Part shown: in pieces, positions 46,844 through 63,916 of the stretch
How positions within the stretch are numbered: the first letter of the stretch is position 1
Layout of the letters: every line of letters starts with the position of its first letter
Source of the DNA: a candidate division WWE3 bacterium RIFCSPHIGHO2_02_FULL_38_14
GTDB taxonomy: Bacteria; Patescibacteriota; WWE3; UBA101185; UBA10185
Direction: 5' to 3'
NCBI GenBank assembly: GCA_001772865.1
Contig: MEVD01000015.1
Span: 88,252-152,167, forward strand
DNA length: 63,916 nucleotides
Made by a program: the position numbers and the translations under genes
Notes under the pieces: model-generated
Told to the model about the DNA's origin: nothing
What the model saw: only the letters and a program-made list of their open reading frames with translations
Databases searched by the model: none

Positions 46844-48887
46844 AAGAAGATGTTATCACAACAACACTTAAAAAACTTATTAAAAGTGTGTTGAAAAACA
46901 TATCCGGATGATATTTAAATTTTACTAAATGCTCGCCTTTAGGCAGATTAAATTTTATAAATACTTCCGAGTAGTCTGGAACTATACCAGCTCCGTCTAC
47001 TGTAACATCCCATTCTTTATAAGATCTAATAAAAGTATTAACCAAACGCTCTTCTGAAGCATTAATTTTAAACGAAAACTCGTTTTGTTTTATATTTAAA
47101 TACTCTATATTTTCATTTATTATAAATGGGAGTGAAGAATCATTTTCCATAAATATAACATTGCCAGTTGAATTTAATATATAGTTAACTCCCAGATAAT
47201 CTTCAAGTTTTTGATAAAAACCATAAGTATTATACTTATTAAATTTAATAGTGGTATCCGAAAATAAAACAGGATATTTCACATCAGCAAATCCCATGTC
47301 TTTTAAATACTTGGAGTAGGCATCCGGCTCCATCTGACTGTAACCGAATATTCCGTTTGATTCATAATATAATCCCACATTTTTATAAACCTCATCATTA
47401 TAAAAATATACTTTTTTAGTAACCGAATCTTCAGGAATAGTAAGTCGTTCATAAACTTTAATTTTGTTAATATCCACATATTGAGGTTTTAATACTTGTA
47501 AACCAAAAAACAATAAATCCGCAAAAATGATTAATACTATTATAAGTTTAATATTAAACGTATAGAATTTATGCAGAAGAAATAGCACAAATATTAGAAC
47601 GGTCGATAATAACCACACTACTAAATTAATGTCTTTTTTAATTGCTCCGTTAAAAAACATATTAATTACCTTTATAGTTTCCTGACCGGTTAAAGAAATT
47701 AAAAATAAAAAAACAAAAAACATACACGGAATTTTATATATATTTATGTTTTGCTTTAAATCATGAAAATTAGTTAAACGTTTATCTCCGGTAAAAAAGC
47801 TGTAAGTCCCTAAGCTTAAAACCAAACTAAATAGAACCGCACTCCTTCCCCAATACCTGAACATTGATATTATGGGAATATTTATATTGCTTAACACGGG
47901 AACAAACGAAATAAATGCCAAAAAGATGAATAAAAACACTAAAAAGGAAGATAAAAAAGCCACTTTTTTATCTTTTAAAATCAAAAGACCTATAACACCT
48001 ATTAATATTGCTGACACCCCGTGATAAATATAAGTCTCGTGTATAAAGTATTCTTCGCTTACCTGGTTCCATTTGTATTCGCCGTTTTTTCCCATTATAA
48101 ACGGATAGACTATATTTACCGCCATTATAGGGGAATATGAGCCTTCATTTAATTTATACGAACCCCCAACCCTGGAACTTTCCACATATAATTCATATGC
48201 TGGTACTAATAGAGGAATGCATATTAAAGAAAAAAGTAAAAGAAACATAATATATTTGAAAGTATTTTTAATTAGATATTTATCAAATATTATTATATAA
48301 ATTCCTAATACAAACATTTTTATAAGTAATAACTGAAAAGACCCGTTGTAAAAATCAAAAAGTAATATGCCTCCCAAAAATAATAAATTTTTAAAATCCG
48401 ATTTTGATATAAATTTATCTACAAGCAGTAAACACAGCGGTAACGTATATACAGCTAAAACAATTTCGAAATGCTTTTGATGATATAAGTTAAATAAGTT
48501 AAAGAAATAAACCACATTTGAAACTGCGAAAGCAGTCAGATTCTCTCCGAATTTTCTTTTTAAGAAATAATATAAACCAACTGAACCGGTTAAATAAAAT
48601 ACTAAATGCATTATTTTGTAATAGTTGAACGGTCCGAATAACATCACAAATACTATATTTAAGGGATTTAAATATCCTGCAGTAGGATCGGCATAAATAG
48701 GAAATCCTGAAAAAATCCTCTGAGTGTAGAAAGGAAATTCACCTTTTTGCAGGCTTTGGTAAAGAAAGTACTTAACTGGATAATGATAGCCCTCTGGATC
48801 TTCTCCTCCGATATAAGTATTTATGTTGAGCAAAGGATAGAAAAATAATAAATACGTGAAAATAGAAATGAGTAATGCTTTCCTCAT
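46806..48887 (-). CDS. YfhO-like (GT-C) membrane protein
   Basis: Many TMs; YHYP..G.FP.Y..IFSGFP; C-terminal WDVTVDG...G.H.VKFKY. Start moved to ATG 48887 (ATGA overlap with the upstream stop). Confidence 0.75.
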   Translation of the reverse strand: MRKALLISIFTYLLFFYPLLNINTYIGGEDPEGYHYPVKYFLYQSLQKGEFPFYTQRIFSGFPIYADPTAGYLNPLNIVFVMLFGPFNYYKIMHLVFYLTGSVGLYYFLKRKFGENLTAFAVSNVVYFFNLFNLYHQKHFEIVLAVYTLPLCLLLVDKFISKSDFKNLLFLGGILLFDFYNGSFQLLLIKMFVLGIYIIIFDKYLIKNTFKYIMFLLLFSLICIPLLVPAYELYVESSRVGGSYKLNEGSYSPIMAVNIVYPFIMGKNGEYKWNQVSEEYFIHETYIYHGVSAILIGVIGLLILKDKKVAFLSSFLVFLFIFLAFISFVPVLSNINIPIISMFRYWGRSAVLFSLVLSLGTYSFFTGDKRLTNFHDLKQNINIYKIPCMFFVFLFLISLTGQETIKVINMFFNGAIKKDINLVVWLLSTVLIFVLFLLHKFYTFNIKLIIVLIIFADLLFFGLQVLKPQYVDINKIKVYERLTIPEDSVTKKVYFYNDEVYKNVGLYYESNGIFGYSQMEPDAYSKYLKDMGFADVKYPVLFSDTTIKFNKYNTYGFYQKLEDYLGVNYILNSTGNVIFMENDSSLPFIINENIEYLNIKQNEFSFKINASEERLVNTFIRSYKEWDVTVDGAGIVPDYSEVFIKFNLPKGEHLVKFKYHPDMFFNTLLISFLSVVVITSSYAAIRIHKNGRI

Positions 48888-49972
48888 AATGGTCTCCAGA
48901 CATGAAATCCATCTTCCCATTGAATTAAATACCATGAGTAAAATACATAAAAACATATTAAAAATATGTAAAATATTAGTCCGTTGCTACGCTTTAATGT
49001 TAAGTTGAATACCGTTATACAGAGTAGTGGTATAAACCAAATTAGATAAGTTCTATTTAGAACCGGTGTAAACAAATAAAAAATCAAAAACGGTATTACT
49101 CCCAAAACATAGATATTTAAAGTTTTTTTCTTAAAGTAAACGAAAAATGCCAATAACCACCCCCCAAATGAAGCTAAAATAGAATATATTTTTAACGGTA
49201 CGATCTGAAAGAATTCAATATGCAAATAATAACTTATATAAAATAAGAACGGTCGCCCTTGTAGTTCTCTTACAGAATGAACAAAAACAGAACCTCGAAT
49301 CATAGTTAAAAAATCATCCAAGCTTTTTAGAAAGGGAGCTGCGATGGCTAGTGATGTAATTCCGGCAGCCAGCAAAAACTTTTTTCTGTCCGGTGATTTC
49401 AATATAAGCAATGGAAAGATTAAAATAGGAAAAGTCTTAAAAGCCACTCCCAAAGTTATAAAAACACCGGACAAAACAGAATCCCTTTCTAAATAATACA
49501 AACTAAGCATCATAAAAAATACGGCCAAAGGATCAATAAAAGTATAACTACTTCTGAATACCATGTACGGATTAAAAAGCCACACCAAAAGCGATAAAAA
49601 CATTACTTTTATATCTTTGTTAAAAAAATAACGGACCAATAAAACACCCACCCCCAAATCGGCCAGCAAAACAGGGATCTTCCATAAAACCTGAACCTCA
49701 ATATTAGTAAATAAATGAAATATATATAACAAGGAAAACAAATATATACCCAGAGGCAGATAAGAATACCCGTGGTTTCCGGTATCATCGGGATTGGAAA
49801 AACTTTCAATAGTCCAAATATAAGGATTCCTTCCGTCCAATAAATCTACAACGGCTTTTTCATAGGCATATACATCTTTGCCGGCCTGATTAAAATACTT
49901 AAGTCTTTCAAAGACCGCAATGGTAAAAATCAAAATCAAAAGTATAAATATTAAAATCCGCTTATATTTCAC
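48884..49972 (-). CDS. GT87/DUF2029-like glycosyltransferase (paralog 2)
   Basis: DVYAY...GRNPY, YSYLP, AFKTFP; polytopic. Confidence 0.65.
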   Translation of the reverse strand: MKYKRILIFILLILIFTIAVFERLKYFNQAGKDVYAYEKAVVDLLDGRNPYIWTIESFSNPDDTGNHGYSYLPLGIYLFSLLYIFHLFTNIEVQVLWKIPVLLADLGVGVLLVRYFFNKDIKVMFLSLLVWLFNPYMVFRSSYTFIDPLAVFFMMLSLYYLERDSVLSGVFITLGVAFKTFPILIFPLLILKSPDRKKFLLAAGITSLAIAAPFLKSLDDFLTMIRGSVFVHSVRELQGRPFLFYISYYLHIEFFQIVPLKIYSILASFGGWLLAFFVYFKKKTLNIYVLGVIPFLIFYLFTPVLNRTYLIWFIPLLCITVFNLTLKRSNGLIFYIFLICFYVFYSWYLIQWEDGFHVWRPL

Positions 49973-51090
49973 AGCTTTATATAATCACCTAAAACGTCAA
50001 CTCCGTCGCTCCATTGATTCAAATAAAACAAGTAGAACAGGTAATACCCCAAAACTAGCAAATAAAACTTAAAAGGGTTTTTTTCAAAATATCTATTAAA
50101 TGTTGCAATTATATATACAGGTATTATCCACATTAAATGAGTTCTGCTTAAAACAGGGGTGAAAAGATAAAAGCTTAATAAGGAAACCGTGCTTAGCAAG
50201 TACTTATCATCTACTTTCTTTTTATAAATTAAAAATATTGATAATAAAACACCAGAAAAAAGAGCGGCATATACATAAAATTTAAACAATCTCGTCTGCA
50301 AAAAGCTGAAACCGCTATCCTGCATAAAATAAAATATGTAAGTCAAAACTGGTCTTCCTTGAACCTCTCTCTCGCTATGTACTAGGAGTGAGCCTTTAAT
50401 ATAATTAATCAGGTCTTCGCCTGATTTAAAAAACGGCACGCTTATAGCTAAAAAAAACAGTAACCCGATTATTACAATCATTTTTTTCTGCTTAACTTTA
50501 GTAAAAATTATAGGAAGCAGAATTACGGGATAAGTTTTAAATGAAATTGCCAGGGAATACAGAAAAACACTAAGTTTATCTTTTTTACCTAATAAATATA
50601 ATGCCAAAAACACTAAAAATATTGTTATAGGTTCAGAATTAGTATAACTTTCTCTAAGTAAAAAATGAGGATTGAAAAACCATATTAATAAAGAAAAAAT
50701 GAGTGCAGCATAGCTTTTTTTAAACAAATATACACATAAGAGCACACCGACTCCCAAATCAGCGGCTAAAACCGGAAGCTTCCAAAGTCTTTGAAGAGGA
50801 ATATTATAATTATCATAAAAATAGTATAAAAACGATTGAATGTACAGCAAACTTGGCATATATGCATAGCCGTGCTCCAATCCTTTTTCCGGCTTTTCAT
50901 AAGTCATAACTGTCCATTTATATGGATTTTCCCCGGATATAAAATCCATAACAGCTTTTCTATAGGATTCAAAATCGCCTCCGGCTTCATCAAATAATCT
51001 ATAGCGCAAATATGTACTAAATAAAAATATTGCTAATAATACTATTACTTTTAAAACTGTTTCCTTTTCCAACGTAAATTTAACAGTCAT
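49969..51090 (-). CDS. GT87/DUF2029-like glycosyltransferase (paralog 1)
   Basis: DFESY...GENPY, YAYMP, SFKTYP; clearly homologous to the neighbour. Confidence 0.65.
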   Translation of the reverse strand: MTVKFTLEKETVLKVIVLLAIFLFSTYLRYRLFDEAGGDFESYRKAVMDFISGENPYKWTVMTYEKPEKGLEHGYAYMPSLLYIQSFLYYFYDNYNIPLQRLWKLPVLAADLGVGVLLCVYLFKKSYAALIFSLLIWFFNPHFLLRESYTNSEPITIFLVFLALYLLGKKDKLSVFLYSLAISFKTYPVILLPIIFTKVKQKKMIVIIGLLFFLAISVPFFKSGEDLINYIKGSLLVHSEREVQGRPVLTYIFYFMQDSGFSFLQTRLFKFYVYAALFSGVLLSIFLIYKKKVDDKYLLSTVSLLSFYLFTPVLSRTHLMWIIPVYIIATFNRYFEKNPFKFYLLVLGYYLFYLFYLNQWSDGVDVLGDYIKL

Positions 51091-51219
51091 ATACTTTAAA
51101 TTATAACTTTAATTTTAATCCTGTACGAACAGGAGATACACACTTTGCCGTTAGAAAAAAAAGAATATATAATTAAACATAGACCAACTTAAATATATAT
51201 TTTGTGGAAGGAGAAGTTT

Positions 51220-51834
51220 ATGTCATTTGAATTACCTCAATTACAATTCGCTTACGATGCTTTAGAACCATATATAGACGCAATGACGATGGAAATACAC
51301 CACTCAAAACACCATGCTGCATACATTAACAATTTGAACAAAGCGTTAGAACCTTATATGGATTTGGAGACGAAGGAATTAGAAGAACTGGTAAAAGATC
51401 TTAATAGCTTGCCGGAAAGTATTAGAACTGCCGTACAAAATAACGGAGGGGGGCATTATAACCACACCTTTTTCTGGAAAATACTTACCCCAAACAGCAC
51501 AAAATTACCAGAAGGTCTGCTGGCTGAGGCTATAAATAAAGAGTTCGGCAATTTTGAAAACTTTAAAATGGAATTCAATAAGGCTGCTATGGGCAGATTC
51601 GGAAGCGGATGGGCCTGGCTGATTATGGATGGTAATAAAAATTTAAGTGTGGTTTCTACACCTAATCAGGATAATCCAATAATGGGCGGTTTTAGACCTG
51701 TATTGGGTTTGGACGTATGGGAGCACGCATATTATCTTAAATATCAAAACAGAAGAGCCGATTATGTCAACGCATTTTGGAATGTTGTAAACTGGATACA
51801 GGTACAGGAAAACTTCGGAAAGAAAGAAGATTAA
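51220..51834 (+). CDS. sodA: Fe/Mn superoxide dismutase (Mn-type signature)
   Basis: [33 protein letters not shown]. Start moved to ATG 51220 after AAGGAG. Confidence 0.95.
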
Positions 51835-51851
51835 GTAACTGCATCTAAATT

Positions 51852-52328
51852 ATGACCCATAATGTAATTTACTCATTAGCAATTATCCTGGTTGCCTTGG
51901 TTGTAAAAGTAATCTCCAATATCATTATTAATAATGCGCTGAACAAATTTGATAAAAGAGTTTCTTTGAAACAGCGTGCCTTAACAATATCCACATTTAT
52001 AAAAAATACGATTAATTTATCTGCATTGGTAATTATTATAATTATGTTGCTGGACCAATGGGGGATAAATATATCTCCTATAATAACAAGTATCGGTATA
52101 GCAGGATTGGCAGTAGGTTTTGGAGCACAGGCTTTAGTTAGAGACATTGTTACCGGAATTTTTATTTTAATTGAGAATCAATATAATGTCGGTGACAAAT
52201 TAAAAATCGCCGGATTAGAAGGCCGCGTAAAGGAAATAACTTTAAGGTCTACTATATTACAGGATGACTTCGGAACAATACATATTATTCCTAATTCTTC
52301 AATTTCTATAATTACAAAACTGAAATGA
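51852..52328 (+). CDS. MscS-family mechanosensitive channel, short form
   Basis: GLAVGFGAQALVRDIVTG, VGD, ITLRST, IPNS; lacks the usual C-terminal domain. Confidence 0.8.
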   Translation: MTHNVIYSLAIILVALVVKVISNIIINNALNKFDKRVSLKQRALTISTFIKNTINLSALVIIIIMLLDQWGINISPIITSIGIAGLAVGFGAQALVRDIVTGIFILIENQYNVGDKLKIAGLEGRVKEITLRSTILQDDFGTIHIIPNSSISIITKLK

Positions 52329-53814
52329 GTTTTTTATAAATTGTTGCATTAAGTATTCCGTCCACATATATTTCTTTTTCTATCGAATAAGATGATAATA
52401 ATACCGGATCCGCCAGCTTGAATTCTTGGTTATCAACTACATCAATATAATATTGCGGAAGATAGTTACTCCCCGGAGGAGTAATATCAAATTCCCTTAA
52501 ATAGTATTCCGCCAAAATAGCGTTATCATTTGTATAAATCCCTCGAACTCCTTTTTTGGTAAGCATATATTCTCTAACCACATCCCATCCTCTGTAATAA
52601 GGAAACCCGTATAAATATAAATGGTAATTATTGTTGGCTTTTCTCAGATTATATAAAGTATATTGGTCTTTCCAAGGATAACCGGTATTTAAAAATGGAA
52701 TGTAAACCGATGCTTTTATTAAAAGTGACACTAAAAGCGTTGCAGTAACTGTACCAATCATTATCTTTTTTAATTTAAAGGAAACAGAATTTTTTTCAAT
52801 TAAGTTAACAAAACCTACTCCCGACATAATATAAATCGGAATTAAATAGTTATTTATATGAGTACCGGGGTTTTGGAAAATCAGCTCAAAAACAATAAAA
52901 GGTATTAAGAACCAGAAAAACACAGTAATCTTCTTATAATTAATTCCTGTAGCAAAATAACGTCTTCGACTATTTTGCTCACTTTCGTTAGCAAAATAGA
53001 AGAAACTGAATAGCATAATTAACAAATAAAAAACATCTGGGTTATAAACTTTCATTGTATATACACTACTGCTTGGACGGTATTCCTGACCCGTAATCCT
53101 TCTTATTACATAATTTTGGGTTCTTTCAGAAAAATACCCATTTATTAAATATGGACCGTAAAAAACAGTGGAAAATATTATTACCGGTATTAAAAAATAA
53201 ATAGTAAAGTTTTTAATACCGGATGACTTAAAAAATATCATTGCAGCTGGTATCACAAAAAACAATGAATCATAATGAGTTAATATACCCAAAGAAAGGA
53301 AAATACTGCTTAAAAATATCAGCATTACCTTCTTATTTTTTTCATATAACAAACTTAAAAATATCGAAACTAAACAAAACATAATTAAAACGCTTTGATA
53401 TTGCGCAGTCCGGCTAAAAGCTATATTAAACCCACTCAAAGTAAATAGAGAAGACGCAAAAGCTGCTTCTTTCCAACCGAACATATTCCTTACAATAAGA
53501 TAAAATATTATAACTGATAAGAATCCTGACAAAGCAAACGGCAGTCGAATATACACTTCATTAAAACTATTAAATGTATTTTCGGTCAGCCAGGTAATTA
53601 TAAATTGGACCGGGCCTTTTCTTTGATCAAGCAGGTAATCGGTAATACTTATACTTTTATTATAAAAAACAGCTTTTGTTTCATCACCATAAAAATGAGA
53701 ATAACCAAGCTGTGGAAAACGCAAAATAAATGATACTGATAAAAGCACTGAGATAATTATTAGTTCAATTTTTGATAAACTTTTAATAGAAAAACCCGGA
53801 ACTACACTCATCAT
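52312..53814 (-). CDS. ArnT/GT39-like GT-C glycosyltransferase
   Basis: ILRF..L..SHFYGDE, KGP, RLPFAL, SRTAQY, THY motifs. Confidence 0.7.
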   Translation of the reverse strand: MMSVVPGFSIKSLSKIELIIISVLLSVSFILRFPQLGYSHFYGDETKAVFYNKSISITDYLLDQRKGPVQFIITWLTENTFNSFNEVYIRLPFALSGFLSVIIFYLIVRNMFGWKEAAFASSLFTLSGFNIAFSRTAQYQSVLIMFCLVSIFLSLLYEKNKKVMLIFLSSIFLSLGILTHYDSLFFVIPAAMIFFKSSGIKNFTIYFLIPVIIFSTVFYGPYLINGYFSERTQNYVIRRITGQEYRPSSSVYTMKVYNPDVFYLLIMLFSFFYFANESEQNSRRRYFATGINYKKITVFFWFLIPFIVFELIFQNPGTHINNYLIPIYIMSGVGFVNLIEKNSVSFKLKKIMIGTVTATLLVSLLIKASVYIPFLNTGYPWKDQYTLYNLRKANNNYHLYLYGFPYYRGWDVVREYMLTKKGVRGIYTNDNAILAEYYLREFDITPPGSNYLPQYYIDVVDNQEFKLADPVLLSSYSIEKEIYVDGILNATIYKKLISVL

Positions 53815-55585: not shown

Positions 55586-55661
55586 GCGGCGGTAGTTCAG
55601 TTGGTAGAATGTCTCCCTTCCAAGGAGAAGGTCGCCGGTTCAAATCCGGTCCGCCGCTCCA
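55586..55661 (+). tRNA. tRNA-Gly (anticodon TCC)
   Basis: Cloverleaf: acceptor GCGGCGG/CCGCCGC, D GTTC/GAAT, anticodon stem TCTCC/GGAGA with loop CTTCCAA, T-arm GCCGG-TTCAAAT-CCGGT, U73 and encoded CCA; 76 nt. Confidence 0.97.
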
Positions 55662-55734: not shown

Positions 55735-58700
55735 ATGCTTTTCAAAAAAGTGGTTAGGTTTTTGCTAATAATATTTTTGTTTTTAACTGCCTTCTATTGG
55801 TCAAATAAGCCTGTTTATGCAGCAGTTACTTTTGAACAGCAAATCAATATTATAGATCAGGAATATTACACTATATCCACCACAGACAGTCCAACAGATA
55901 ATTCTCTAGGTATTATTAAGTGGACCTCAGCCAATTATCCAGATTCCACAGTTTATTTTGAAGCTATGATCAGATCCGGTTTCGCTACTTATACCGCCAC
56001 TGCCACATTATATGATATTACTGAAGACCCAGATGCAGCTGTAAGTGGAGCAACAGTATCCACTACCGCGGGCTATACAAGAGTTAGAAGTTCAGCAATT
56101 ACCCTTACCGACGGACATGAATATACTGCTCGATTAAAAGTGAGTTGCACGGGATGTGCTGCATATTTTAAAGCAGCACGTTTAATAGTAGTTCAGTCCG
56201 ATTCTACGAAAATAATTGATACTGAAAACCAAGTGGAGATAGGCAATGCAGAAGGTAAATCCGACACAAGTTATTCATCTATAGAAGGCAAAAAATTATA
56301 TAGATACGATTCTTCTGTATTCAGCCCAACTCCAACTGCATATTTTGAATCATCGTTCCGTGCCTCTTCTCCGATGCTTGAACAGCAGATTGAAATTGTA
56401 GATCAAGAATATTACGTAAAGTCATCCACGGACGGACCAACCGATAATTCTTTAGGAATAATAAAATGGGTCGCTGGAAACTATACTGGTGCTACTGTTT
56501 ATTTTGAAGCAGTCATGAAATCAGGATTCGCGACATATAATGTTTCTGCAACCCTATATGACGTTACAGCTGATCCTGACACTGCTGTATCCGGAAGTAC
56601 AACACCAACAACTACTAATGGAACCTATACTCGGCTACGTGCAACCTCCGCTATTACACTTACAGACGGGAGAGAATATACAGTACGAATTAAATCCAGC
56701 AATGGTTCTGAAGCATATATTAAGTCTGCCCGATTAATCATCGTTCAAAGCAACTCGACAAAAATCACTGATACAGAACAGCAAGTCGATATAGGTAATG
56801 GGGAAGGTAGATCTGCTAACAGCTATGATGTACTCGATAGAAAAAAACTTTATTACTATGATTCGTCAGGTTTCAACCCAACACCTACTGCTTATTTTGA
56901 GTCAACATTCAGAGCTTCATCTCCAAAACTTGATCAACAAATTAATATAATAGACCAAATTTATTCATCCTCATCGGCTACTGACAACCCTACAGATAAC
57001 TCTTTAGGTTTAATTCGGTGGACAAGTGGTTCATACACAAGTGCTACTGTTTACTTTGAAGCAATTATTAAAACCGCAAGCGGAACATCAACCGCCACAG
57101 CTACACTATACAACTCATCTGGAGTAGCAGTATCTGGGGCTGCTGTCTCAACCAGCTCTGCAAACTACACTAGGCTTAGAAGTAGCGCTATAACACTTAC
57201 TGATGGCACTGACTACACTGTTAGAATAAAGAACTCAACAGGGGCTCAAAATACATTTATACTATCCGCCCGATTAATAATCCTCCAATCTGATTCTACA
57301 AGAATAGATGATACAGAAACTCAAATAGAAGTAGGAAACTCCGTAACTGACATCACCAACACAACCTATTCAACCCTAACTGACCCCAAAATATACCTGT
57401 ACGACACAAACAAGTTTTCCGGTACTGAATCGATATACTTTGAAGCCACTCTTCACTCCGATAATGCCTCCGATACGGTTTTTGCCCAACTTTTACGGTG
57501 CAATTCCGCATCTGATTGCAGTGGCGGAACAGCTGTAACCGGTTCGGAAATTTCAACTAACTCAACCACCTACGCTCGCGTAAGGAGCAGCGATATTTTT
57601 TCCAATATGACTGATGATGCTAATTATGCTGTACAAATTAAAACCTCCGCAGGCACAGGAGATATTGCAAATGCGAAAATAATTAACGTACAAGACGGAG
57701 GTGGAACCGGCCTTACCGACGTAGAAGTTATACATGAATACATAAATACTTTGAACACCCAAGCCACTTCCACATATACAAATAAAACTTCTAATAACCT
57801 TTATGACCCGCAAAATTTCGGTGTTTGGCCATCAGTCTATTTCGAAGCAAGTATGAAGACTAGCTCTGGTACAGGGTATGCCAGACTAGAAAATACTGGT
57901 CTTGGGGTTTCTACTGCAGCAATCTCTAACGCTGAATTAACAACAACTCTTACAACCTACAATCGGGTTCGAACAGCAAGTGATCTTGTTTTAAATCTTC
58001 TACCACAAGCTGTTCAAGATATGGATATAGAAATGAAAAATTCAGCCACCAACACAACTTCAGTATCTTCATCATGGCTTGTAATTCAATTTTCAAGTAT
58101 TCCGACTAACGGGCCGACAGGAGCAGTGGAACTATATAACGATACAGACGGTACATCAGTATCGGGTAGTGAAGTAACATCTACAAGTGCAAGTTTTACC
58201 AGAATTAAAAGCAACTCATTTTCACTCACTACAGGAAAAAATTATTCTGTGAGGATAAAATCTGCATTCCAAGCTAACGCCAAATTAACATTAAACCAAT
58301 CAAACGCTGGTGGAGTTACTGCAACAGAGATAATTCACCAGAACATTACTGTGTTAACAACTGAGGCTACATCTACATATACCAACAAGAATTATTTCAA
58401 TCTTTTTGATCCACAAAATTTCGGTGTATGGCCAACTGTTTATTATGAAGCTACTATGAAGACTAGTGCCGGAACTGGCTATACTCAACTTGAGGACGCC
58501 ATAGCAAACTTCAATACAATCTCCATCTCTTCGGAAATAACTACAACGAGCACCTCATACACTAGGGTAAGAGGAACTGACAATTTAATGTATCAACTTA
58601 AGCCTCAAGCAAGTCAAAATATTGATGTTGAAGTAAAAAATTCTGCGACTAACACAACATCTGTAACAGCTTCTTGGTTGATAATTCAACTTGCAAATAT

Positions 58701-61700
58701 TCCTACTACTGCATCTACAGGCGCTATTCAGTTATATAATGACACGGATAGTACATCCGTTTCTGGTAGTGAAGTGACTTCTACCAATTCTGGATTTACC
58801 AGAGTTAGAAGCGGGTCTGTTTCTCTGACTACAAATAAAAACTACTCAGTTCAACTAAAGTCCGCATTTCAGGCAAACGCAAAATTAATACTCGTACAAT
58901 CTGATACCGATGGAATAGCGACTACTGAATTATTACATCAACAAGTGAACGCCGTGTTTACACGGGCCAATTCCGGTTATGCGGATCAAGATATAAATAA
59001 TCAGTACGATCCAACCAACTTCGCGGGAGGTACTTTTAACTATTTTTACGAAGCAACACTTAAAGCTTCCGCAGGTACAGCTTACGCCATTCTTGAAAAC
59101 GACACTAATAGCGATCAAATTAATAGCCCCACAACTTCCGAAGTTACTGTCATTTCAACTTCATATACAAGAATCAGAAGTGGTTCTTTAGGCGCAAATA
59201 CCGATTGGCCCACAACCGCAAAAAACATGGACACACAAATAAGAAATTCAGCATCTAATACCACATATGCTTCTAATACATGGCTTGTTATACAAACTTC
59301 TAATATGAGTCCACCTGATGCTCCTTCTTCATTAGCCCAATACAAATCAGATGGCACTACCTCTATTTCTACCGGTAGTTATACAAATGAAACTTCAGTA
59401 GTTCTTAAAATGTCCATGAACCACACTAATAATCCCGATACTTTAACTCCTGAAGTTGAAATTAGGGCTGTAGGGACTTCCTTCACGGATTCTGTAACAG
59501 ATACAGGCAGTGGTGTTGCTTTTTCCGGCTCTCCTGTTACTGGAACTGTTACTGTTACCGGTTTAACTGACGGACAAAGCTACCATTGGCAGTCAAGAGT
59601 ATGCGATTCTTCTTCCCGCTGTTCAGATTGGGGGTCATATGGCGCGAACTTAGAATCGGAAGCTGATTTTACTGTAGACACTACTAACCCAACCACTCCA
59701 GGAACTCCCTCAACAACAACTCCTACTTCAGATACAACTCCAACATGGACTTGGACTGCTTCTTCGGATTCTGGCTCTGGCTTAGCGGCAACCCCATATA
59801 CTGTTGAGTGGTGTGATAATTCAGGCTTTACAGGATGTGAGGTGTTCGCATCTACTTCATCAACCAACTCATTTACACACTCCACTGCTCTAGCTGACGG
59901 AACTTGGTACTTTAGAGTTAGAGCTACCGATGTTGCAGGTAACGTATCATCATATTCCTCAAATGGAAGTGCAGTTATTGATACTACTGCTCCCTTAACC
60001 CCCGGAACTCCTTCTACCACTACACCTACTGCAGACTCAACCCCCGTATGGACTTGGACTGCTTCATCGGACTCCGGTTCCGGGCTGGCTTCTACTCCAT
60101 ATACTATTGAGTGGTGTACTGACTCCGGATTTTCAGGTTGCGGCTCAAATACTGATACCTCCACAACTAATTCATACACTCACAGCACTGAACTAGCCAA
60201 CGGAACTTGGTATGTTAGAGTCAAAGCTAAAGATACCGTAGATAATGAATCAGGATATTCTTCTAATGGAACGGCTGTTATTGATACTACAGGTCCAACT
60301 ACTCCAGGAACTCCAACCTCAACTTCTTTAACTACGGATACCACCCCTGAATGGACTTGGACTGCCTCAATAGACAGTGGTGTGGGACTGGCAACTACTC
60401 CATATACTGTCGAGTGGTGCACAGATTCGGGATTTTCAGGATGCGCTGCCAATACTGACACAACATCAACTAATTCATTTACACACACCACAGCTCTTGC
60501 TGCAGGCACATGGTATTTTAGAGTTAAAGCCGAAGATACTTTAGGTAATGAATCCAGCTATTCATCTAATGGAACATTTACCATAGCCTCATCTTCTACC
60601 GGCGACAGTACTAAACCATCCAAACCCGGAAAACCTTCTACTTCAACTCCGACAAGTGACAACACTCCTAAATGGAAATGGAACGAGTCTACTGACAATG
60701 TGGCTCTTGATGACGACGAACCATACTATGTTACTTGGTGTAAAAACAGCAGATTTAACAACTGCAGCGGAAATGTTGATACTGCTGATGATAACGAATA
60801 TACACATGGAGATTCACTCTCCGATGGAACATGGTATTTCAAGGTTAGAGCAAAAGATTCTTCAGGCAATTATTCCAATTATTCCAGTTCAGGTAAAGTT
60901 GTAATTGATACTACAGCTCCGATAATTACCATAACAGGTACAACTGTCACAGAAACATCAATAAAAGTTACTTGGAAAACCAATGAAAAGAGCCAAACAA
61001 TAATAGAGTGGGGGACAAGTAATTCTTATGGAAGAAGTTACACAAATTCATCATTAGTTAAAGATCATAGTTATAATATTACTGGTCTTAGTAAAGGTAC
61101 TTTATACTACCTAAAAATAACTTCAAAAGACTCTCTTTCTAATACAGGCAAAGTCGAGTTACAACGTCAAACATTGGGAACTTTAGAAGCAACCTTAATC
61201 ACAGATATTAACGTGGTTATCAACTCCCCAACATCTGCAACCATCAACTGGAAAACAAACCACGCAGCTACTTCAGAAATAGATTACGGACTTACCACTA
61301 ACTTCACTGATCAGACTATATCAACAGACAAAGTTATAGTTCACTCAATGACATTAGTGGGATTAACTTCTGACACTACTTATTTTTATGAAATAATCAG
61401 TGTAGGTAATACCACTGCTGTCAATGCATTTAGAACCTTTGATACACCAGGAGAAGAAATAATTGAAGAAATTATTGAAGAAACAACAGACAGCAAAGAA
61501 GCGAGTGAGAGTACATCGGTTATTAATGAGATTGTTGATACAATAACCGACACTATTGAAGATGTAGTAGAGACTATAACAGACACTGTAAAAGATATTG
61601 TAGATAAAATAACTGAAATCATAAGGACAGAAGAATTTAACAAACCTGTTGATACTGTATTTGCTGTTGGAATTAAAAAACTAATCAGAGACCTCCCTAT

Positions 61701-62715
61701 ACCTAAAGTTATAAAAGATATTGCAGAAAAAGCTATTGACGTAATTAAAAGTCCACAGACTCAGAAAATTATTACCTTCGTTGCGGTTGTAGGAAATATC
61801 GCTTCCGCACTCACAGTCCTGCCGAATATCAGAGAAATAATCTCTACCCTAAACCAGATTAAACATGTTAACATTCTTGGATTATTATTTGGACTCTTTA
61901 GGAGAAAGAAAAACCCCTGGGGTATAGTTTATGATTCCCAAACCAAACAGCCCCTGGATCCTGTAATTTTGACACTAACCGACCCAAGCGGAAAAATATA
62001 TCAAACCATTTCTGATATATATGGAAGGTATGAATTTATAGTAGACCCCGGTGAATACACACTTTCTGCAATAAAAACTAACTACACCTTCCCATCAAAA
62101 ATTCTTATGGGTAAAAAGGACGACGGAATATACGAAAATCTATATTTCGGAGAAAAGCTAAATATCCAGCAAGACCAGAAAATTCAAGTCCACATACCTA
62201 TGGATAGAGAAAATGTTGATTGGAATCAGCTCGAGAAACAAAGAATGGGTATTGTAAATAGAAATGTCCGTTTATATAAAGCCGTAGATTATCTATTTAA
62301 CGCCACGCTTATCCTGAATATATTATCTCTATCATTGAGCTACTCTCTAGAAAAAATTGTTATATTCTCGCTATTTATATTTTTATATACTTACCACAAT
62401 TACATAAAATCCCATAAACCATGGGGGATAGTTACCAACTTGGAAAACCAGCCTTTAGGAGGAATAGTCCTTAGGCTTGTCCACGTGAAATTCCCCAAGA
62501 TCAGCGGAGCTATAGCGGTAACCAAAGACAATGGTAGGTATAACTTCCTCGTCAGAAAAGGCACCTACCAGATTGTGGCACATAAGAAAAATCCTGACGG
62601 AACAACACAGGAGATAAACAGGTCAAAAGTTATGGATGTGAAGAAAGAGCAGGGGAGTCTGGGACCTGATTTTAGAGTGGATGCTAAAACAAAAGTAAAT
62701 TCAGTCACTAAATAA
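55735..62715 (+). CDS. Giant (2326 aa) cell-surface protein: nine nested beta-rich modules, FN3/Ig-like stalk, C-terminal membrane anchor
   Basis: Signal peptide (…VYA); repeated VYFEA/TRxRS modules; four 101-aa repeats; two FN3-like domains; TMs with two carboxypeptidase-regulatory-like (PWGIV...GRY) domains. Confidence 0.85.
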   Translation: MLFKKVVRFLLIIFLFLTAFYWSNKPVYAAVTFEQQINIIDQEYYTISTTDSPTDNSLGIIKWTSANYPDSTVYFEAMIRSGFATYTATATLYDITEDPDAAVSGATVSTTAGYTRVRSSAITLTDGHEYTARLKVSCTGCAAYFKAARLIVVQSDSTKIIDTENQVEIGNAEGKSDTSYSSIEGKKLYRYDSSVFSPTPTAYFESSFRASSPMLEQQIEIVDQEYYVKSSTDGPTDNSLGIIKWVAGNYTGATVYFEAVMKSGFATYNVSATLYDVTADPDTAVSGSTTPTTTNGTYTRLRATSAITLTDGREYTVRIKSSNGSEAYIKSARLIIVQSNSTKITDTEQQVDIGNGEGRSANSYDVLDRKKLYYYDSSGFNPTPTAYFESTFRASSPKLDQQINIIDQIYSSSSATDNPTDNSLGLIRWTSGSYTSATVYFEAIIKTASGTSTATATLYNSSGVAVSGAAVSTSSANYTRLRSSAITLTDGTDYTVRIKNSTGAQNTFILSARLIILQSDSTRIDDTETQIEVGNSVTDITNTTYSTLTDPKIYLYDTNKFSGTESIYFEATLHSDNASDTVFAQLLRCNSASDCSGGTAVTGSEISTNSTTYARVRSSDIFSNMTDDANYAVQIKTSAGTGDIANAKIINVQDGGGTGLTDVEVIHEYINTLNTQATSTYTNKTSNNLYDPQNFGVWPSVYFEASMKTSSGTGYARLENTGLGVSTAAISNAELTTTLTTYNRVRTASDLVLNLLPQAVQDMDIEMKNSATNTTSVSSSWLVIQFSSIPTNGPTGAVELYNDTDGTSVSGSEVTSTSASFTRIKSNSFSLTTGKNYSVRIKSAFQANAKLTLNQSNAGGVTATEIIHQNITVLTTEATSTYTNKNYFNLFDPQNFGVWPTVYYEATMKTSAGTGYTQLEDAIANFNTISISSEITTTSTSYTRVRGTDNLMYQLKPQASQNIDVEVKNSATNTTSVTASWLIIQLANIPTTASTGAIQLYNDTDSTSVSGSEVTSTNSGFTRVRSGSVSLTTNKNYSVQLKSAFQANAKLILVQSDTDGIATTELLHQQVNAVFTRANSGYADQDINNQYDPTNFAGGTFNYFYEATLKASAGTAYAILENDTNSDQINSPTTSEVTVISTSYTRIRSGSLGANTDWPTTAKNMDTQIRNSASNTTYASNTWLVIQTSNMSPPDAPSSLAQYKSDGTTSISTGSYTNETSVVLKMSMNHTNNPDTLTPEVEIRAVGTSFTDSVTDTGSGVAFSGSPVTGTVTVTGLTDGQSYHWQSRVCDSSSRCSDWGSYGANLESEADFTVDTTNPTTPGTPSTTTPTSDTTPTWTWTASSDSGSGLAATPYTVEWCDNSGFTGCEVFASTSSTNSFTHSTALADGTWYFRVRATDVAGNVSSYSSNGSAVIDTTAPLTPGTPSTTTPTADSTPVWTWTASSDSGSGLASTPYTIEWCTDSGFSGCGSNTDTSTTNSYTHSTELANGTWYVRVKAKDTVDNESGYSSNGTAVIDTTGPTTPGTPTSTSLTTDTTPEWTWTASIDSGVGLATTPYTVEWCTDSGFSGCAANTDTTSTNSFTHTTALAAGTWYFRVKAEDTLGNESSYSSNGTFTIASSSTGDSTKPSKPGKPSTSTPTSDNTPKWKWNESTDNVALDDDEPYYVTWCKNSRFNNCSGNVDTADDNEYTHGDSLSDGTWYFKVRAKDSSGNYSNYSSSGKVVIDTTAPIITITGTTVTETSIKVTWKTNEKSQTIIEWGTSNSYGRSYTNSSLVKDHSYNITGLSKGTLYYLKITSKDSLSNTGKVELQRQTLGTLEATLITDINVVINSPTSATINWKTNHAATSEIDYGLTTNFTDQTISTDKVIVHSMTLVGLTSDTTYFYEIISVGNTTAVNAFRTFDTPGEEIIEEIIEETTDSKEASESTSVINEIVDTITDTIEDVVETITDTVKDIVDKITEIIRTEEFNKPVDTVFAVGIKKLIRDLPIPKVIKDIAEKAIDVIKSPQTQKIITFVAVVGNIASALTVLPNIREIISTLNQIKHVNILGLLFGLFRRKKNPWGIVYDSQTKQPLDPVILTLTDPSGKIYQTISDIYGRYEFIVDPGEYTLSAIKTNYTFPSKILMGKKDDGIYENLYFGEKLNIQQDQKIQVHIPMDRENVDWNQLEKQRMGIVNRNVRLYKAVDYLFNATLILNILSLSLSYSLEKIVIFSLFIFLYTYHNYIKSHKPWGIVTNLENQPLGGIVLRLVHVKFPKISGAIAVTKDNGRYNFLVRKGTYQIVAHKKNPDGTTQEINRSKVMDVKKEQGSLGPDFRVDAKTKVNSVTK
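59677..60906 (+). repeat. Four tandem ~303-bp (101-aa) intragenic Ig/FN3-like repeats
   Basis: DTT motif codons at 59677, 59980, 60283, (60604) and 60907; each unit has TPxWTW, YTVEWC-x7-C and GTWYFRV. Confidence 0.9.
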
Positions 62716-62941: not shown

Positions 62942-63916
62942 ATGCTTTTCAAAAAAGTGGTTAGGTTTTTGCTAATAATTGTTTTGTTTTTTACTGCCCA
63001 TTTATGGTCTTCTAAACCTGTTTCGGCAACAACCGCCATTGAGCAGCAGATTAATATAATCAACCAGGAAGTTTGGATTCAAGAAACAACCGATTTCCCA
63101 ACCGATAATTCCCTTGGACTAGTACGCTGGACTTCCGGCAGCTATACAGGAGCAACAGTCTATTTTGAAGGCCTCCTAGCTGCTGCGGCCAGCTCTACTG
63201 TTTACGCAACACTGTATGATTCAGGTGGAAGTACAGTGTCCGGAGGTGCAATTTCTACTTCTGTAAATGGTTATGTAAGGGTACGAAGTGGTGCTATCAC
63301 CCTAGTAGATGGTACAGATTATACTGTTAGGGTCAGATCGAGCGGTACTGCAAACCCGTCAAAAATCAAATTCGCCCGGTTTATTATTTTACAATCAGAT
63401 AGTACTAAACTTACCAATACGGAAACCCAAATTGAAGTAGGAAATAGTGAGGGAACTTCTTCAACTTCTTACACACAATTAACCGACAAAAAAATCTACC
63501 GCTACGATTCAAGCAAATTTACACCGGCACCAACCTCCTATTTCGAAGCAAGTTTCCGGCCTAGTTCACCACTTCTTGAACAGCAAATAAACATTATGGA
63601 TCAGGAATATTTATTCAACTCCACTACTGATGTACCAACTGATAACTCTTTAGGTATCGTGAAATGGACAGCAGGATCATATACCGGAGCTACTGTTTAT
63701 TTTGAGGCAGTAATAAAACCTCCATTCGCTACCTCCGCTACATCTACAGTAAACCTTTACGATAAAACTGCCGATGCTACGGTAACAAATTCAACACTCT
63801 CAACTGGTACACAAACTTATACTCGTTTACGCAGTTCTGCAATTACTCTTACCGATGGTAACGAATACACTGTCAGAATTAAGGCTAGCCGGGATGACTT
63901 TTTTGCTGGTATAAAA
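62942..63916 (+). CDS. Paralogous giant surface protein, 5' part only (runs off window)
   Basis: Open for 325 codons: MLFKKVVRFLLII...EQQINIINQ...TDNSLG...VYFE...YFEASFRPSSPLLEQQINI. First 38 nt are identical to the 55735 gene. Not in the ORF track. Confidence 0.9.
   Translation, partial: MLFKKVVRFLLIIVLFFTAHLWSSKPVSATTAIEQQINIINQEVWIQETTDFPTDNSLGLVRWTSGSYTGATVYFEGLLAAAASSTVYATLYDSGGSTVSGGAISTSVNGYVRVRSGAITLVDGTDYTVRVRSSGTANPSKIKFARFIILQSDSTKLTNTETQIEVGNSEGTSSTSYTQLTDKKIYRYDSSKFTPAPTSYFEASFRPSSPLLEQQINIMDQEYLFNSTTDVPTDNSLGIVKWTAGSYTGATVYFEAVIKPPFATSATSTVNLYDKTADATVTNSTLSTGTQTYTRLRSSAITLTDGNEYTVRIKASRDDFFAGIK

What the first reader, a model, noticed from the sequence alone, without database searches (positions are those of the whole stretch)
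55822..59307. Recursively nested ('matryoshka') repeat architecture in the giant surface protein
The N-terminal ~1160 aa are not simple tandem repeats. One ~130-aa module (..VYFEA.....A.L....V...E..T....Y.RVRS....) occurs nine times, as a three-module unit a-b-c. The innermost unit (56926-58104, aa 398-790, 393 aa) is continuous. In the other two units module b breaks right after 'YFES.FRASSP' (56373 and 56925), where a new unit begins ('MLEQQI', 'KLDQQI'). Module b resumes only after the inner unit ends, with 'T..(P/S)TGA(V/I).LYNDTD.TSVSGSEVTST' at ~58105 and ~58705. The outbound halves are ~184 aa and the return halves exactly 200 aa, summing to ~384 aa, close to the intact unit. The break maps to the HSDNASDT loop of the intact module b. 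The order is therefore a1-b1N-[a2-b2N-[a3-b3-c3]-b2C-c2]-b1C-c1. Inference: the chain runs out and back, stacking three pseudo-trimeric beta-sandwich heads into a rod, with the mid-sequence unit (the only one with a Cys pair, RCNSASDC) at the distal tip. This resembles flagellin's out-and-back topology but is built by self-insertion. I do not recognise the module as a named family, and tandem-repeat finders would mis-parse it.
Basis: partly seen in the sequence, partly recalled or inferred. Interest (0 to 1): 0.88.

Follow-up and report, generated by a model that had tools for sequence, protein, structure and literature searches.

The report
Nested jelly-roll units in surface protein
The outer part of a giant cell-surface protein from a Patescibacteria-like (CPR) bacterium is built like Russian dolls: a three-module unit is split open in its middle module to hold a second unit, which holds a third. 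Relatives show the same design at one to five levels, which makes this an unusually clear natural case of recursive domain nesting.

Summary
Residues 30-1191 of the 2326-aa ORF (window 55735-62715, +) read a-bN | a-bN | a-b-c | bC-c | bC-c. That is three 184-aa "opening" pieces followed by three 200-aa "closing" pieces.

- **Splicing test.** Spliced outer units align continuously with the intact inner unit (45-51% identity, z = 57-76).
- **Relatives.** Among 225 parsed relatives I found 1, 2, 3, 4 and 5 nested units. In 56 proteins an unrelated domain sits in the same loop of module b. Openings and closings balance in all but one protein that is neither a fragment nor a parsing artefact. One apparent exception turned out to be a frameshift.
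- **Structure prediction.** AlphaFold2 of the two-level nest (aa 214-990), with a colinear alignment, gives pLDDT 92.9 and pTM 0.87. Both split halves score 93-98.
- **Pairing.** Half-to-half similarity follows nested pairing, not sequential pairing (r = 0.51 against 0.19).

Not verified, because no model coordinates were available:
- the pseudo-trimeric heads;
- the rod shape.

Corrected:
- growth looks like paired tandem duplications on both flanks, not copy-paste of a whole unit;
- module a1 also has a Cys pair.

No named family covers the unit. The closest analogue is the nested SBHM array of cyanobacterial RNA polymerase Si3.

The parts
55735..55821 (+). Signal peptide (aa 1-29, MLFKKVVRFLLIIFLFLTAFYWSNKPVYA)
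   Evidence: Hydrophobic window at aa 1-24. The cleavage site after VYA is inferred from the sequence.
55822..56205 (+). Module a1 (aa 30-157), outermost unit
Evidence: Own HMM parse. It is 67% identical to a2.
56206..56373 (+). b1N (aa 158-213), N half of split module b of unit 1; ends '...YFESSFRASSP'
   Evidence: It is 71% identical to b2N and 39% to the N half of b3.
56374..56757 (+). Module a2 (aa 214-341), middle unit
   Evidence: pLDDT is 87-96 in the two-level model.
56758..56925 (+). b2N (aa 342-397), N half of split module b of unit 2
   Evidence: In the two-level model (model residues 129-184) pLDDT is about 93-98, with the same four-strand pattern as the N half of b3.
56926..57297 (+). 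Module a3 (aa 398-521), innermost unit
   Evidence: pLDDT 95-98.
57298..57708 (+). Module b3 (aa 522-658), the only intact b; the loop DNASDT (aa 576-581) corresponds to the split site; Cys589 and Cys595
57709..58104 (+). Module c3 (aa 659-790)
   Evidence: (60% identical to c2).
58105..58311 (+). b2C (aa 791-859), C half of split module b of unit 2; '..PTGAVELYNDTDGTSVSGSEVTST..'
   Evidence: It is 70% identical to b1C. pLDDT is 93-98 (model residues 578-646).
58312..58704 (+). Module c2 (aa 860-990)
58705..58911 (+). b1C (aa 991-1059), C half of split module b of unit 1
58912..59307 (+). Module c1 (aa 1060-1191), outermost unit; the most divergent c (38-40% to c2 and c3)
59308..61434 (+). 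Stalk: Ig-like (Big_13) repeats and two fn3 / Pur_ac_phosph_N-like domains (aa ~1192-1900)
   Evidence: Pfam. TRF finds a 303-nt period at 59861-60575.
61435..62715 (+). Acidic helical region, hydrophobic (membrane) segments at about aa 2011-2030 and 2199-2217, and two small beta domains; presumed membrane anchor
   Evidence: Hydropathy scan and sequence. The anchoring role is inferred.
62942..63916 (+). Start of a second, paralogous gene (runs off the window): near-identical signal peptide, then a-bN-a..., so it is also of the nested type

Best explanation
Residues 30-1191 form a three-level nest of one ~390-aa unit made of three homologous ~130-aa beta-sandwich (jelly-roll-like) modules, a-b-c. 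The hairpin loop after the 'YFEA' strand of the middle module b is a permissive insertion site. In units 1 and 2 that loop holds a whole further unit. Each outer b is therefore encoded in two pieces, 577 and 977 residues apart, which come together on folding. The chain runs outward through a1-b1N-a2-b2N, forms the complete unit 3, and returns through b2C-c2-b1C-c1. Both ends of the nest therefore lie in unit 1. Unit 1 continues into an Ig/FN3 stalk and a C-terminal membrane anchor, so unit 3 is the distal tip.

Shown: the sequence layout; the homology of the halves to whole modules; the family-wide grammar (1-5 nested units or a foreign domain in the same loop, with balanced halves); and confident folding of the two-level nest.

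Inferred: every unit-to-unit junction has two covalent connections, so nesting gives a stiffer, longer projection than beads on a string, and nesting depth sets its reach. The tip loop is a display site for a binding domain. The likely role is glycan or host-surface binding by an episymbiotic CPR cell. The nest probably grows by matched tandem duplications in the opening (a-bN) and closing (bC-c) arrays, with unbalanced intermediates removed by selection.
For: **Layout and splicing.**

**The single unit exists alone.** Many ~590-aa CPR proteins carry one unit.

**Nesting depth varies.** A phmmer search of 1.84e9 representatives found 638 relatives. I parsed 225 relatives with my own HMMs:
- 101 have no split.
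- 56 have a foreign domain of ~152-190, ~307-322 (Gly_rich_2) or ~352-400 aa between bN and bC.
- 18 have two nested units.
- 7 have three (including P0056, which is the window protein).
- P0058 has four and P0057 has five.
- P0084 has two nested units plus a foreign tip.

**Balance.** Of the 40 unbalanced parses, most touch a protein end or are short pieces from short contigs. The others are mainly parsing or gene-call effects: module a split at the equivalent loop in P0089, P0088 and P0209; a doubly called bC in P0219; an N-terminally truncated gene call in P0086; and an odd GT2-fragment fusion in P0087. P0061, which lies inside a 23.6-kb contig, is a frameshifted four-unit nest that balances when read through.

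**Conservation.** P0065 matches aa 33-1191 of the ORF in one colinear stretch at 41% identity.

**Structure prediction.** AlphaFold2 of aa 214-990 with 15 colinearly aligned nested homologues gives mean pLDDT 92.9 and pTM 0.87. The strand patterns of b2N+b2C equal those of the intact b3. In an earlier model with a shallow alignment over the outer units, a1 and a2 folded but b1N and b2N did not (pLDDT 25-39).

**Pairing.** Identity matrices of the bN and bC halves correlate at r = 0.51 under nested pairing and 0.19 under sequential pairing. Only 0.1% of random re-pairings reach the nested value.

**Growth.** P0058 has a 183-aa period at 98% identity over 333 aa on the opening side, and a 209-aa period at 95% over 176 aa on the closing side.

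**Surface location.** Signal peptide and C-terminal hydrophobic segments; Big_13 and fn3 stalk.
Against: - No coordinates or PAE were returned, so contact between bN and bC is not seen directly. It is inferred from confidence scores and from there being only one possible partner in the two-level construct.
- The outermost level (b1N with b1C) was never modelled with an adequate alignment.
- Foldseek finds only generic beta-sandwich or jelly-roll proteins at TM <= 0.34. The fold class, the pseudo-trimer and the rod are therefore not established.
- One long relative (P0072, 3206 aa) parses with one bN and two bC. Its first a is a weak, rearranged module, and this case remains unexplained.
- P0087 is also unresolved. 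It has an orphan bC inside an odd fusion with a GT2 fragment, and I did not examine its contig.
- Function rests on context only: no ligand, no experiment.
- Only the best 150 of the 638 representatives, plus the word-index hits, were parsed.
Confidence: 0.85

Rival explanations
1. Two ordinary tandem arrays placed side by side (three copies of a 184-aa repeat, then three of a 200-aa repeat). Each copy folds locally like beads on a string, with no split domains.
For: The dot-plot is literally two tandem arrays. P0058 shows typical tandem-repeat dynamics in each array.
Against: - bN and bC are each half of a module. Joined, they align to whole modules a and b3 (z = 13-22; continuous alignment).
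- The numbers of the two repeat types are equal in the 28 multi-level proteins that parse as complete, plus the frameshifted four-unit locus of P0061. P0072 (one bN, two bC) is the only long protein that breaks the rule.
- 56 proteins have bN and bC separated by an unrelated domain.
- bN stays unfolded while the neighbouring a folds when the partner is not modelled.
- Both halves reach pLDDT 93-98 in the colinear model.
Confidence: 0.03
2. The halves do reunite, but in crossed (sequential) order, b1N with b2C and b2N with b1C. That would give an interlocked rather than a nested arrangement.
For: In the window protein b1N is about 71% identical to b2N, and b1C about 70% to b2C, so its own sequence cannot tell the two pairings apart. 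The three-level construct was not modelled with a usable alignment.
Against: - Across 39 split modules, similarity of the halves follows nested pairing (r = 0.51 against 0.19; 0.1% of random re-pairings reach it).
- In P0058 the odd bN is the first and the odd bC is the last.
- Two-level proteins and the two-level construct have only one possible pairing and fold confidently.
- Linkers at the junctions are essentially zero residues long, as expected if an inserted unit has adjacent termini.
Confidence: 0.05
3. Origin by literal self-insertion. A complete copy of the unit was pasted into the b loop of another copy, once per level.
For: The outcome X[XY]Y is exactly what that would give. The same loop accepts foreign domains in 56 relatives, so insertions there do happen. 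In P0058 the innermost two levels are 99-100% identical in both a and c.
Against: - In P0058 the near-identical repeats run as tandem periods whose phases do not match unit borders. bN of level 3 equals bN of level 2, not the N half of the intact b4.
- In the window protein a2, b2N and b2C are closest to unit 1 but c2 is closest to c3. This fits a closing-side tandem duplication of [c3 + b1C] better than a whole-unit copy.
Confidence: 0.25
4. Assembly artefact: a mis-joined or rearranged repeat region in a metagenome bin.
For: Repeat-rich genes are prone to misassembly.
Against: - The copies are only 35-71% identical in protein, and there is no DNA direct repeat of 40 nt or more, so there is nothing to mis-join.
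- The reading frame is open for 2326 codons.
- The same architecture recurs in independent samples down to 41% identity.
Confidence: 0.01

Closest known systems
Si3 insertion of cyanobacterial RNA polymerase beta' (eight sandwich-barrel hybrid motifs, SBHM)
   Same: Repeats of one small beta fold are not arranged in simple tandem. SBHM-2 to -5 are built from distant parts of the chain, while inner ones are continuous. The result is a 150 Å elongated body in which the chain goes out and back (bioRxiv 10.1101/2024.01.11.575193, read).
   Different: The fold differs (SBHM, not a ~130-aa jelly-roll-like module). Si3 sits inside an enzyme's trigger loop, not in a surface protein. The repeating element here is a three-module unit. 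Here the nesting depth varies from 1 to 5 among relatives, and the same loop also takes foreign domains. No sequence or Foldseek relation was found.
Flagellin-type out-and-back topology (D0/D1 from both termini, variable D2/D3 in the middle); from my own knowledge
   Same: Both chain ends lie at the base, the middle of the sequence lies at the distal tip, and the middle is the variable part.
   Different: Flagellin's base is a helical coiled coil and its levels are unrelated folds. Here every level is a copy of the same unit. No flagellin family was among the Pfam hits at E <= 1.
Jelly roll inserted in a jelly roll in viral capsid proteins (birnavirus VP2 shell and projection domains); also single-chain triple jelly rolls (nepovirus coat protein, STIV turret protein, single-chain TNF-family trimer)
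   Same: These appear among the Foldseek matches to the models (2df7/7vrp, 1a6c, 4ind, 4zch). They share a beta-sandwich module type and, for VP2, a sandwich-in-sandwich insertion (the latter from my own knowledge).
   Different: TM-scores are only 0.1-0.27, so this is a fold-class resemblance and not demonstrated homology. The viral proteins have one level of insertion and no recursion.
Carbohydrate-binding beta-sandwich modules (CBM22 tandem 4xup, SGBP-B 7kwb, PNGase F 1pgs)
   Same: Foldseek probability is 0.66-1.0. Relatives of the unit are fused to GT2 glycosyltransferases, LamG/DUF2341, M23 peptidase and MG2 domains, which is the usual company of glycan-binding modules.
   Different: There is no sequence-family match, TM is low, and no binding site was identified.

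Membership tests
Nested (discontinuous) domain insertion | The parent domain is encoded in two separated segments that together are homologous to a contiguous domain | tested here: met
   b1N+b1C and b2N+b2C align to the intact b3 (z = 19-22) and to module a (z = 13-17). The alignment across the junction is continuous.
Nested (discontinuous) domain insertion | The inserted piece is an autonomous unit that also occurs on its own | tested here: met
   Many relatives carry a single a-b-c unit. Unit 3 is modelled at pLDDT 95-98.
Nested (discontinuous) domain insertion | The two segments of the parent domain are in contact in the folded protein | tested here: inconclusive
   In the two-level model both halves have pLDDT 93-98, pTM is 0.87, and the strand pattern equals that of the intact b. 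No coordinates or PAE were available to inspect contacts.
Recursive self-nesting (same unit at every level) | Two or more levels, each a homologue of the same unit, with openings and closings balanced | tested here: met
   The window protein has 3 levels. Relatives have 2-5. P0061 balances after its frameshift is read through. One unexplained exception is P0072.
Simple tandem repeat protein | Head-to-tail copies of one complete unit | tested here: not met
   The dot-plot shows two different periods in two separate blocks. TRF and the direct-repeat search find nothing in the region. True tandem units do occur in other relatives, such as P0071 and P0007.
Flagellin | N- and C-terminal helical D0/D1 segments (Pfam Flagellin_N / Flagellin_C) | tested here: not met
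   No such Pfam hit. The model is all-beta.
TNF/C1q-like or viral triple jelly-roll pseudo-trimer | Three jelly rolls packed around a pseudo-threefold axis | not testable with these tools
   Foldseek lists 4zch, 4ind, 1a6c and a phage C1q-like protein, but with TM 0.1-0.25. The geometry of the model could not be inspected.
Named sequence families (Pfam, NCBIfam, PHROGs, PDB sequences) | A significant profile match over the module | tested here: not met
   There is only a sub-threshold DUF5496 hit (E = 0.0016, 18.9 bits against a cutoff of 27) at aa 33-76. Nothing was found in PHROGs, NCBIfam or the PDB.

The most novel reading that the evidence does not exclude
This family is a natural, evolvable 'telescopic' display scaffold. 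The length of a rigid, doubly connected surface spike would be set by nesting depth, which changes quickly through coupled duplications in the two flanking arrays. P0057 and P0058 share 84%-identical modules but have 5 and 4 levels, and P0058 has 98-100% identical levels. The innermost b loop would be a swap site for different binding domains. Together these would let ultrasmall episymbiotic bacteria retune both the reach and the specificity of host attachment.
Probability: 0.3. Interest if true: 0.85.

Novelty: new variant of a known kind. Interest (0 to 1): 0.72.

Why it matters
- **Protein evolution.** Domain insertion is common, but insertion of a unit into a copy of itself, repeated up to five times, is very rare. 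Here it follows a strict balanced grammar, and intermediate depths are preserved in relatives. The family is a natural series for asking how discontinuous domains fold, how two repeat arrays stay in step, and whether double-stranded domain junctions give stiffness.
- **Annotation.** There is an unnamed ~390-aa three-module unit with 638 representative relatives at E <= 0.001. It sits mostly in large extracellular proteins of Patescibacteria and is fused to glycosyltransferases, peptidases and lectin-like domains. Domain and repeat finders mis-parse it.
- **Biology of CPR bacteria.** Giant surface proteins are prime candidates for host attachment.
- **Protein engineering.** The b loop is a naturally validated site for domain display.

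Tried and rejected
1. **First AlphaFold2 run.** I modelled aa 30-1191 with alignment A1, whose rows mostly cover unit 3 and only thinly cover the outer units. The outer halves came out below pLDDT 50. This says nothing reliable about pairing.
2. **Alignment A3 for the full region.** MAFFT put the outer bN of two-level homologues on b1N but their outer bC on b2C. That would have fed a false crossed signal to the predictor, so I discarded it. I modelled the two-level construct with the colinear alignment A5 instead.
3. **Alignment A4.** It carried the unrelated C-terminal domain of single-unit proteins onto b2C and c2, so I replaced it with A5.
4. **The search for related loci.** With A1 it failed because no stretch was conserved enough. 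With A2 it used a pattern specific to the Cys-type single units and returned only 4 loci.
5. **First word-index search.** It missed all the giant relatives. The exhaustive representative search found them.
6. **Family and structure libraries.** PHROGs, NCBIfam, PDB sequence searches and Pfam gave no family for the module.
7. **Foldseek.** It gave only low-TM generic matches, so I do not assign a fold family.
8. **Literature searches.** I found no description of this family.
9. **Rfam on the apparently empty 1.2 kb downstream.** Nothing was found. The stretch turned out to hold the start of a paralogous gene.
10. **Model files.** I looked for them on disk in order to measure contacts, and none were there.

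Full report
**1. What is there**

The finding lies in one ORF, window 55735-62715 (+), 2326 aa. It starts with a signal peptide (hydrophobic stretch at aa 1-24). It continues after aa 1191 with Big_13 Ig-like repeats and fn3 / Pur_ac_phosph_N-like domains (303-nt period at 59861-60575). It ends with an acidic helical stretch and hydrophobic segments near aa 2011-2030 and 2199-2217. The protein therefore looks like a secreted, C-terminally anchored surface protein whose N-terminal 1160 residues are farthest from the membrane. That placement is an inference.

Neighbouring genes:
- a tRNA-Gly and a small bPH-domain protein upstream;
- a block of membrane glycosyltransferase-like genes on the other strand;
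- a second paralogous giant gene that begins at 62942 and runs off the window.

G+C is 31-40%, and the named relatives are mostly Patescibacteria (CPR).

**2.

A windowed BLOSUM62 self dot-plot shows two separate repeat blocks. Residues 20-365 repeat at offsets of 182-185, and residues 653-995 repeat at offsets of 200-202. Weaker diagonals join the C half of module a to residues 799-850 and 1002-1048.

With my own HMMs the order is a bN a bN a bN bC c bC c bC c.

| Test | Result |
|---|---|
| aa 214-397 + 791-990 spliced, against aa 398-790 | 51% identity, aligns end to end, z = 76 |
| aa 30-213 + 991-1191 spliced, against aa 398-790 | 45% identity, z = 57 |
| modules a, b, c against each other | z = 9-12 |
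| rejoined b1 and b2 against module a | z = 13-17, align as complete modules |
| rejoined b1 and b2 against b3 | z = 19-22 |

The break corresponds to the loop DNASDT between the strands 'IYFEATL' and 'VFAQLL' of b3. At the DNA level there is no repeat at all.

One stated detail is wrong. Module a1 also carries a Cys pair (C138, C141) besides C589 and C595.

**3. Comparative evidence**

*Searches.*
- A search with unit 3 found 55 relatives. Most are ~590-aa CPR proteins with one a-b-c unit plus an unrelated C-terminal domain.
- An exhaustive phmmer search of 1.84 billion representatives with aa 30-1191 found 638 relatives at E <= 0.001.
- One hit is the window protein itself (P0056).
- Another, P0065, matches aa 33-1191 of the ORF in one colinear stretch at 41% identity. 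The three-level layout is therefore old.

*Architectures.* I parsed 225 relatives with iterated HMMs:

| Architecture | Proteins |
|---|---|
| No split module | 101 |
| One unit with an unrelated domain between bN and bC | 56 |
| Two nested units | 18 |
| Three nested units (including the window protein) | 7 |
| Four nested units (P0058, 3829 aa) | 1 |
| Five nested units (P0057, 4543 aa) | 1 |
| Two nested units with a foreign domain at the tip (P0084) | 1 |
| Unbalanced parse | 40 |

*Foreign inserts.*
- They fall in size classes of ~152-190, ~307-322 and ~352-400 aa.
- The ~310-aa class is Pfam Gly_rich_2.
- P0037 is a clear example, a-bN-[180 aa]-bC-c in one 606-aa protein.
- L002 and L004 show the same layout at the DNA level.
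- In P0088, P0089 and P0209 module a is split by ~840 aa at the equivalent loop.

*Tandem units.* True tandem units also exist (P0071, P0007).

*The unbalanced parses.*
- Most are fragments that touch a protein end or come from short contigs.
- The others are mainly parsing or gene-call effects: module a split at the equivalent loop in P0089, P0088 and P0209; a doubly called bC in P0219; and an N-terminally truncated gene call in P0086.
- P0061 looked unbalanced inside a 23.6-kb contig. It is interrupted by a frameshift, and reading on gives the rest of c, then bC and c, which makes a balanced four-unit nest.
- P0072 (one bN, two bC, with a rearranged first a) remains unexplained.
- P0087 also remains unresolved. 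It carries an orphan bC in an odd fusion with a GT2 fragment, and I did not examine its contig.

An opening half is thus essentially never kept without a closing half. That is what a split domain predicts, and two independent tandem arrays do not predict it.

**4. Structure prediction**

The first AlphaFold2 run covered aa 30-1191, but its alignment mostly covered unit 3. It gave:
- unit 3: pLDDT 95-98;
- a1 and a2: 70-89;
- b1N, b2N and all of the return path: below 50.

This run is uninformative on pairing, although bN did not fold onto its neighbour.

MAFFT mis-registered two-level homologues on the full region. I therefore modelled the two-level nest, aa 214-990, with an alignment I had checked to be colinear for 15 nested homologues.

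Results for the two-level nest:
- Mean pLDDT was 92.9 and pTM 0.87.
- b2N (model residues 129-184) and b2C (578-646) scored 93-98.
- The strand patterns (four strands, then five) match those of the intact b3 and of module a.

In this construct b2N has only one possible partner. The tool returned no coordinates or PAE, so the contact itself, the pseudo-threefold packing and the rod shape remain unverified.

**5. Which half pairs with which**

I compared 39 split modules from 27 proteins. The matrix of bN identities correlates with the matrix of bC identities as follows:

| Pairing assumed | r (all) | r (multi-level proteins only) |
|---|---|---|
| Nested (counted from the outside on both sides) | 0.50 | 0.51 |
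| Sequential (crossed) | 0.24 | 0.19 |

Only 0.1% of 2000 random within-protein re-pairings reach the nested value. In P0058 the divergent bN is the first and the divergent bC is the last.

**6. How the nest grows**

In P0058 the opening side carries a 183-aa period at 98% identity over 333 aa (822-1154 against 1005-1337). The closing side carries a 209-aa period at 95% over 176 aa (1431-1606 against 1640-1815). The repeat phases do not coincide with unit borders. bN of level 3 equals bN of level 2 rather than the N half of the intact b4.

In the window protein:
- a1/a2 are 67% identical, b1N/b2N 71% and b1C/b2C 70%.
- c2 is closest to c3 (60%), while c1 is divergent (38-40%).

This fits a closing-side duplication of the segment [c3 + b1C].

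I therefore favour matched tandem duplications in the two flanking arrays, with loss of unbalanced products, over literal pasting of a whole unit. Both routes give the same final layout. P0057 and P0058 share modules at 83-84% identity but differ in depth (5 against 4), so depth changes on short evolutionary time scales.

**7. Fold and family**

No Pfam, NCBIfam, PHROGs or PDB-sequence family covers the module.

Foldseek against the PDB and BFVD returns only generic multi-domain beta-sandwich and jelly-roll proteins, at TM <= 0.34. They include:
- a single-chain TNF-family trimer;
- a CBM22 tandem, PNGase F and SGBP-B;
- birnavirus VP2, the STIV triple jelly roll and nepovirus coat proteins;
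- phage minor tail proteins and C1q-like proteins.

The module is a beta sandwich of jelly-roll type, as far as these matches go. I do not assign it to a family.

**8. Likely function (inferred)**

Relatives fuse the unit to GT2 glycosyltransferases, DUF2341/LamG, M23 and C25 peptidases and MG2 domains. That is the usual company of extracellular glycan- or surface-binding modules.

In the window protein the nest sits at the far end of an Ig/FN3 stalk. Nesting places both chain ends in unit 1 and puts unit 3 at the tip. Each junction between units has two covalent links, which should stiffen the projection. The b loop of the tip unit is where relatives display other domains.

I read the nest as an extensible, rigid spike for attachment, with depth setting its reach.

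**9. Comparison with known systems**

- **Cyanobacterial RNA polymerase Si3.** This is the nearest precedent. It has eight SBHM domains, of which SBHM-2 to -5 are built from distant chain segments, and it forms a 150 Å body.
- **Flagellin.** It shares the out-and-back logic, but with unrelated folds and a helical base.
- **Birnavirus VP2.** It has one jelly roll inserted in another (from my own knowledge).

What is new here:
- the nested element is a three-module unit inserted into its own homologue;
- the recursion reaches five levels with a balanced grammar;
- all intermediate depths and heterologous inserts coexist in one family.

I rate it a new variant of a known kind.

**10. Limits**

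- There were no coordinates.
- The outermost level was not modelled.
- Function is untested.
- One exception (P0072) is unexplained.
- Only about a third of the detected relatives were parsed.

Noticed in passing
window 62942-63916 (+): A second gene starts 227 nt after the giant ORF and runs off the window. Its signal peptide is nearly identical (MLFKKVVRFLLIIVLFFTAHLWSSKPVSA). It then reads a-bN-a..., so it is a tandem paralogue that is also nested. The ORF listing does not show it because it is cut by the window end.
   Followed up: partly
L005 about nt 8600-8700 (locus of P0061): The four-unit nested gene is broken by a frameshift inside a c module, just after a run of Ser codons. The called protein stops there and the next gene call starts 125 nt later. 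This is either a sequencing error or a real pseudogene.
   Followed up: partly
P0037 aa 33-154; P0072 aa 583-706: In these proteins module a has its C-half segments in swapped order: the '..R.RS....YT.R.K' piece comes before the 'A.LY...G..V.GS' piece. This suggests a strand-swapped or permuted variant of the module.
   Followed up: no
P0088, P0089, P0209 (about 820-860 aa between the halves of module a): Module a can also be split, at the loop equivalent to the b split site (after 'YFEA'), by a very large insert. In P0089 the insert begins with Cys-rich repeats.
   Followed up: partly
P0223 aa 1207-1606: One class of foreign insert in the b loop is a ~400-aa array of Cys-rich repeats ('DCKISY...LKFI.CTNADC') with no Pfam family.
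   Followed up: no
P0003-P0008 and similar, C-terminal ~190 aa: Single-unit proteins share a conserved, unnamed C-terminal domain (motifs 'NNIDPF', 'TGW.GANTSDTR', ending 'PTY').
   Followed up: no
P0072 (3206 aa), aa 583-1574: This is the only long relative whose parse is unbalanced (one bN, two bC). The missing opening half may be too divergent to detect, or may lie in the DUF2341-like region upstream.
   Followed up: partly
window 46806-53814 (-): A run of membrane glycosyltransferase-like genes (YfhO, GT87/EpsG-like x2, PMT_2) lies upstream of the giant gene, interrupted by plus-strand genes for an Fe/Mn superoxide dismutase (51202-51834) and a short MscS-like protein (51852-52328). They may glycosylate the Thr/Ser-rich surface protein: the nested region is 15% Thr and 13% Ser.
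   Followed up: no
window 55586-55661 (+): A tRNA-Gly(TCC) lies 73 nt upstream of the giant ORF.
   Followed up: no
P0068, L002, P0135 record names: Relatives are also filed under 'Candidatus Sifarchaeia archaeon', 'uncultured Pseudomonadales' and Dictyobacter formicarum (Chloroflexota). This reflects either binning errors or real spread beyond Patescibacteria.
   Followed up: no
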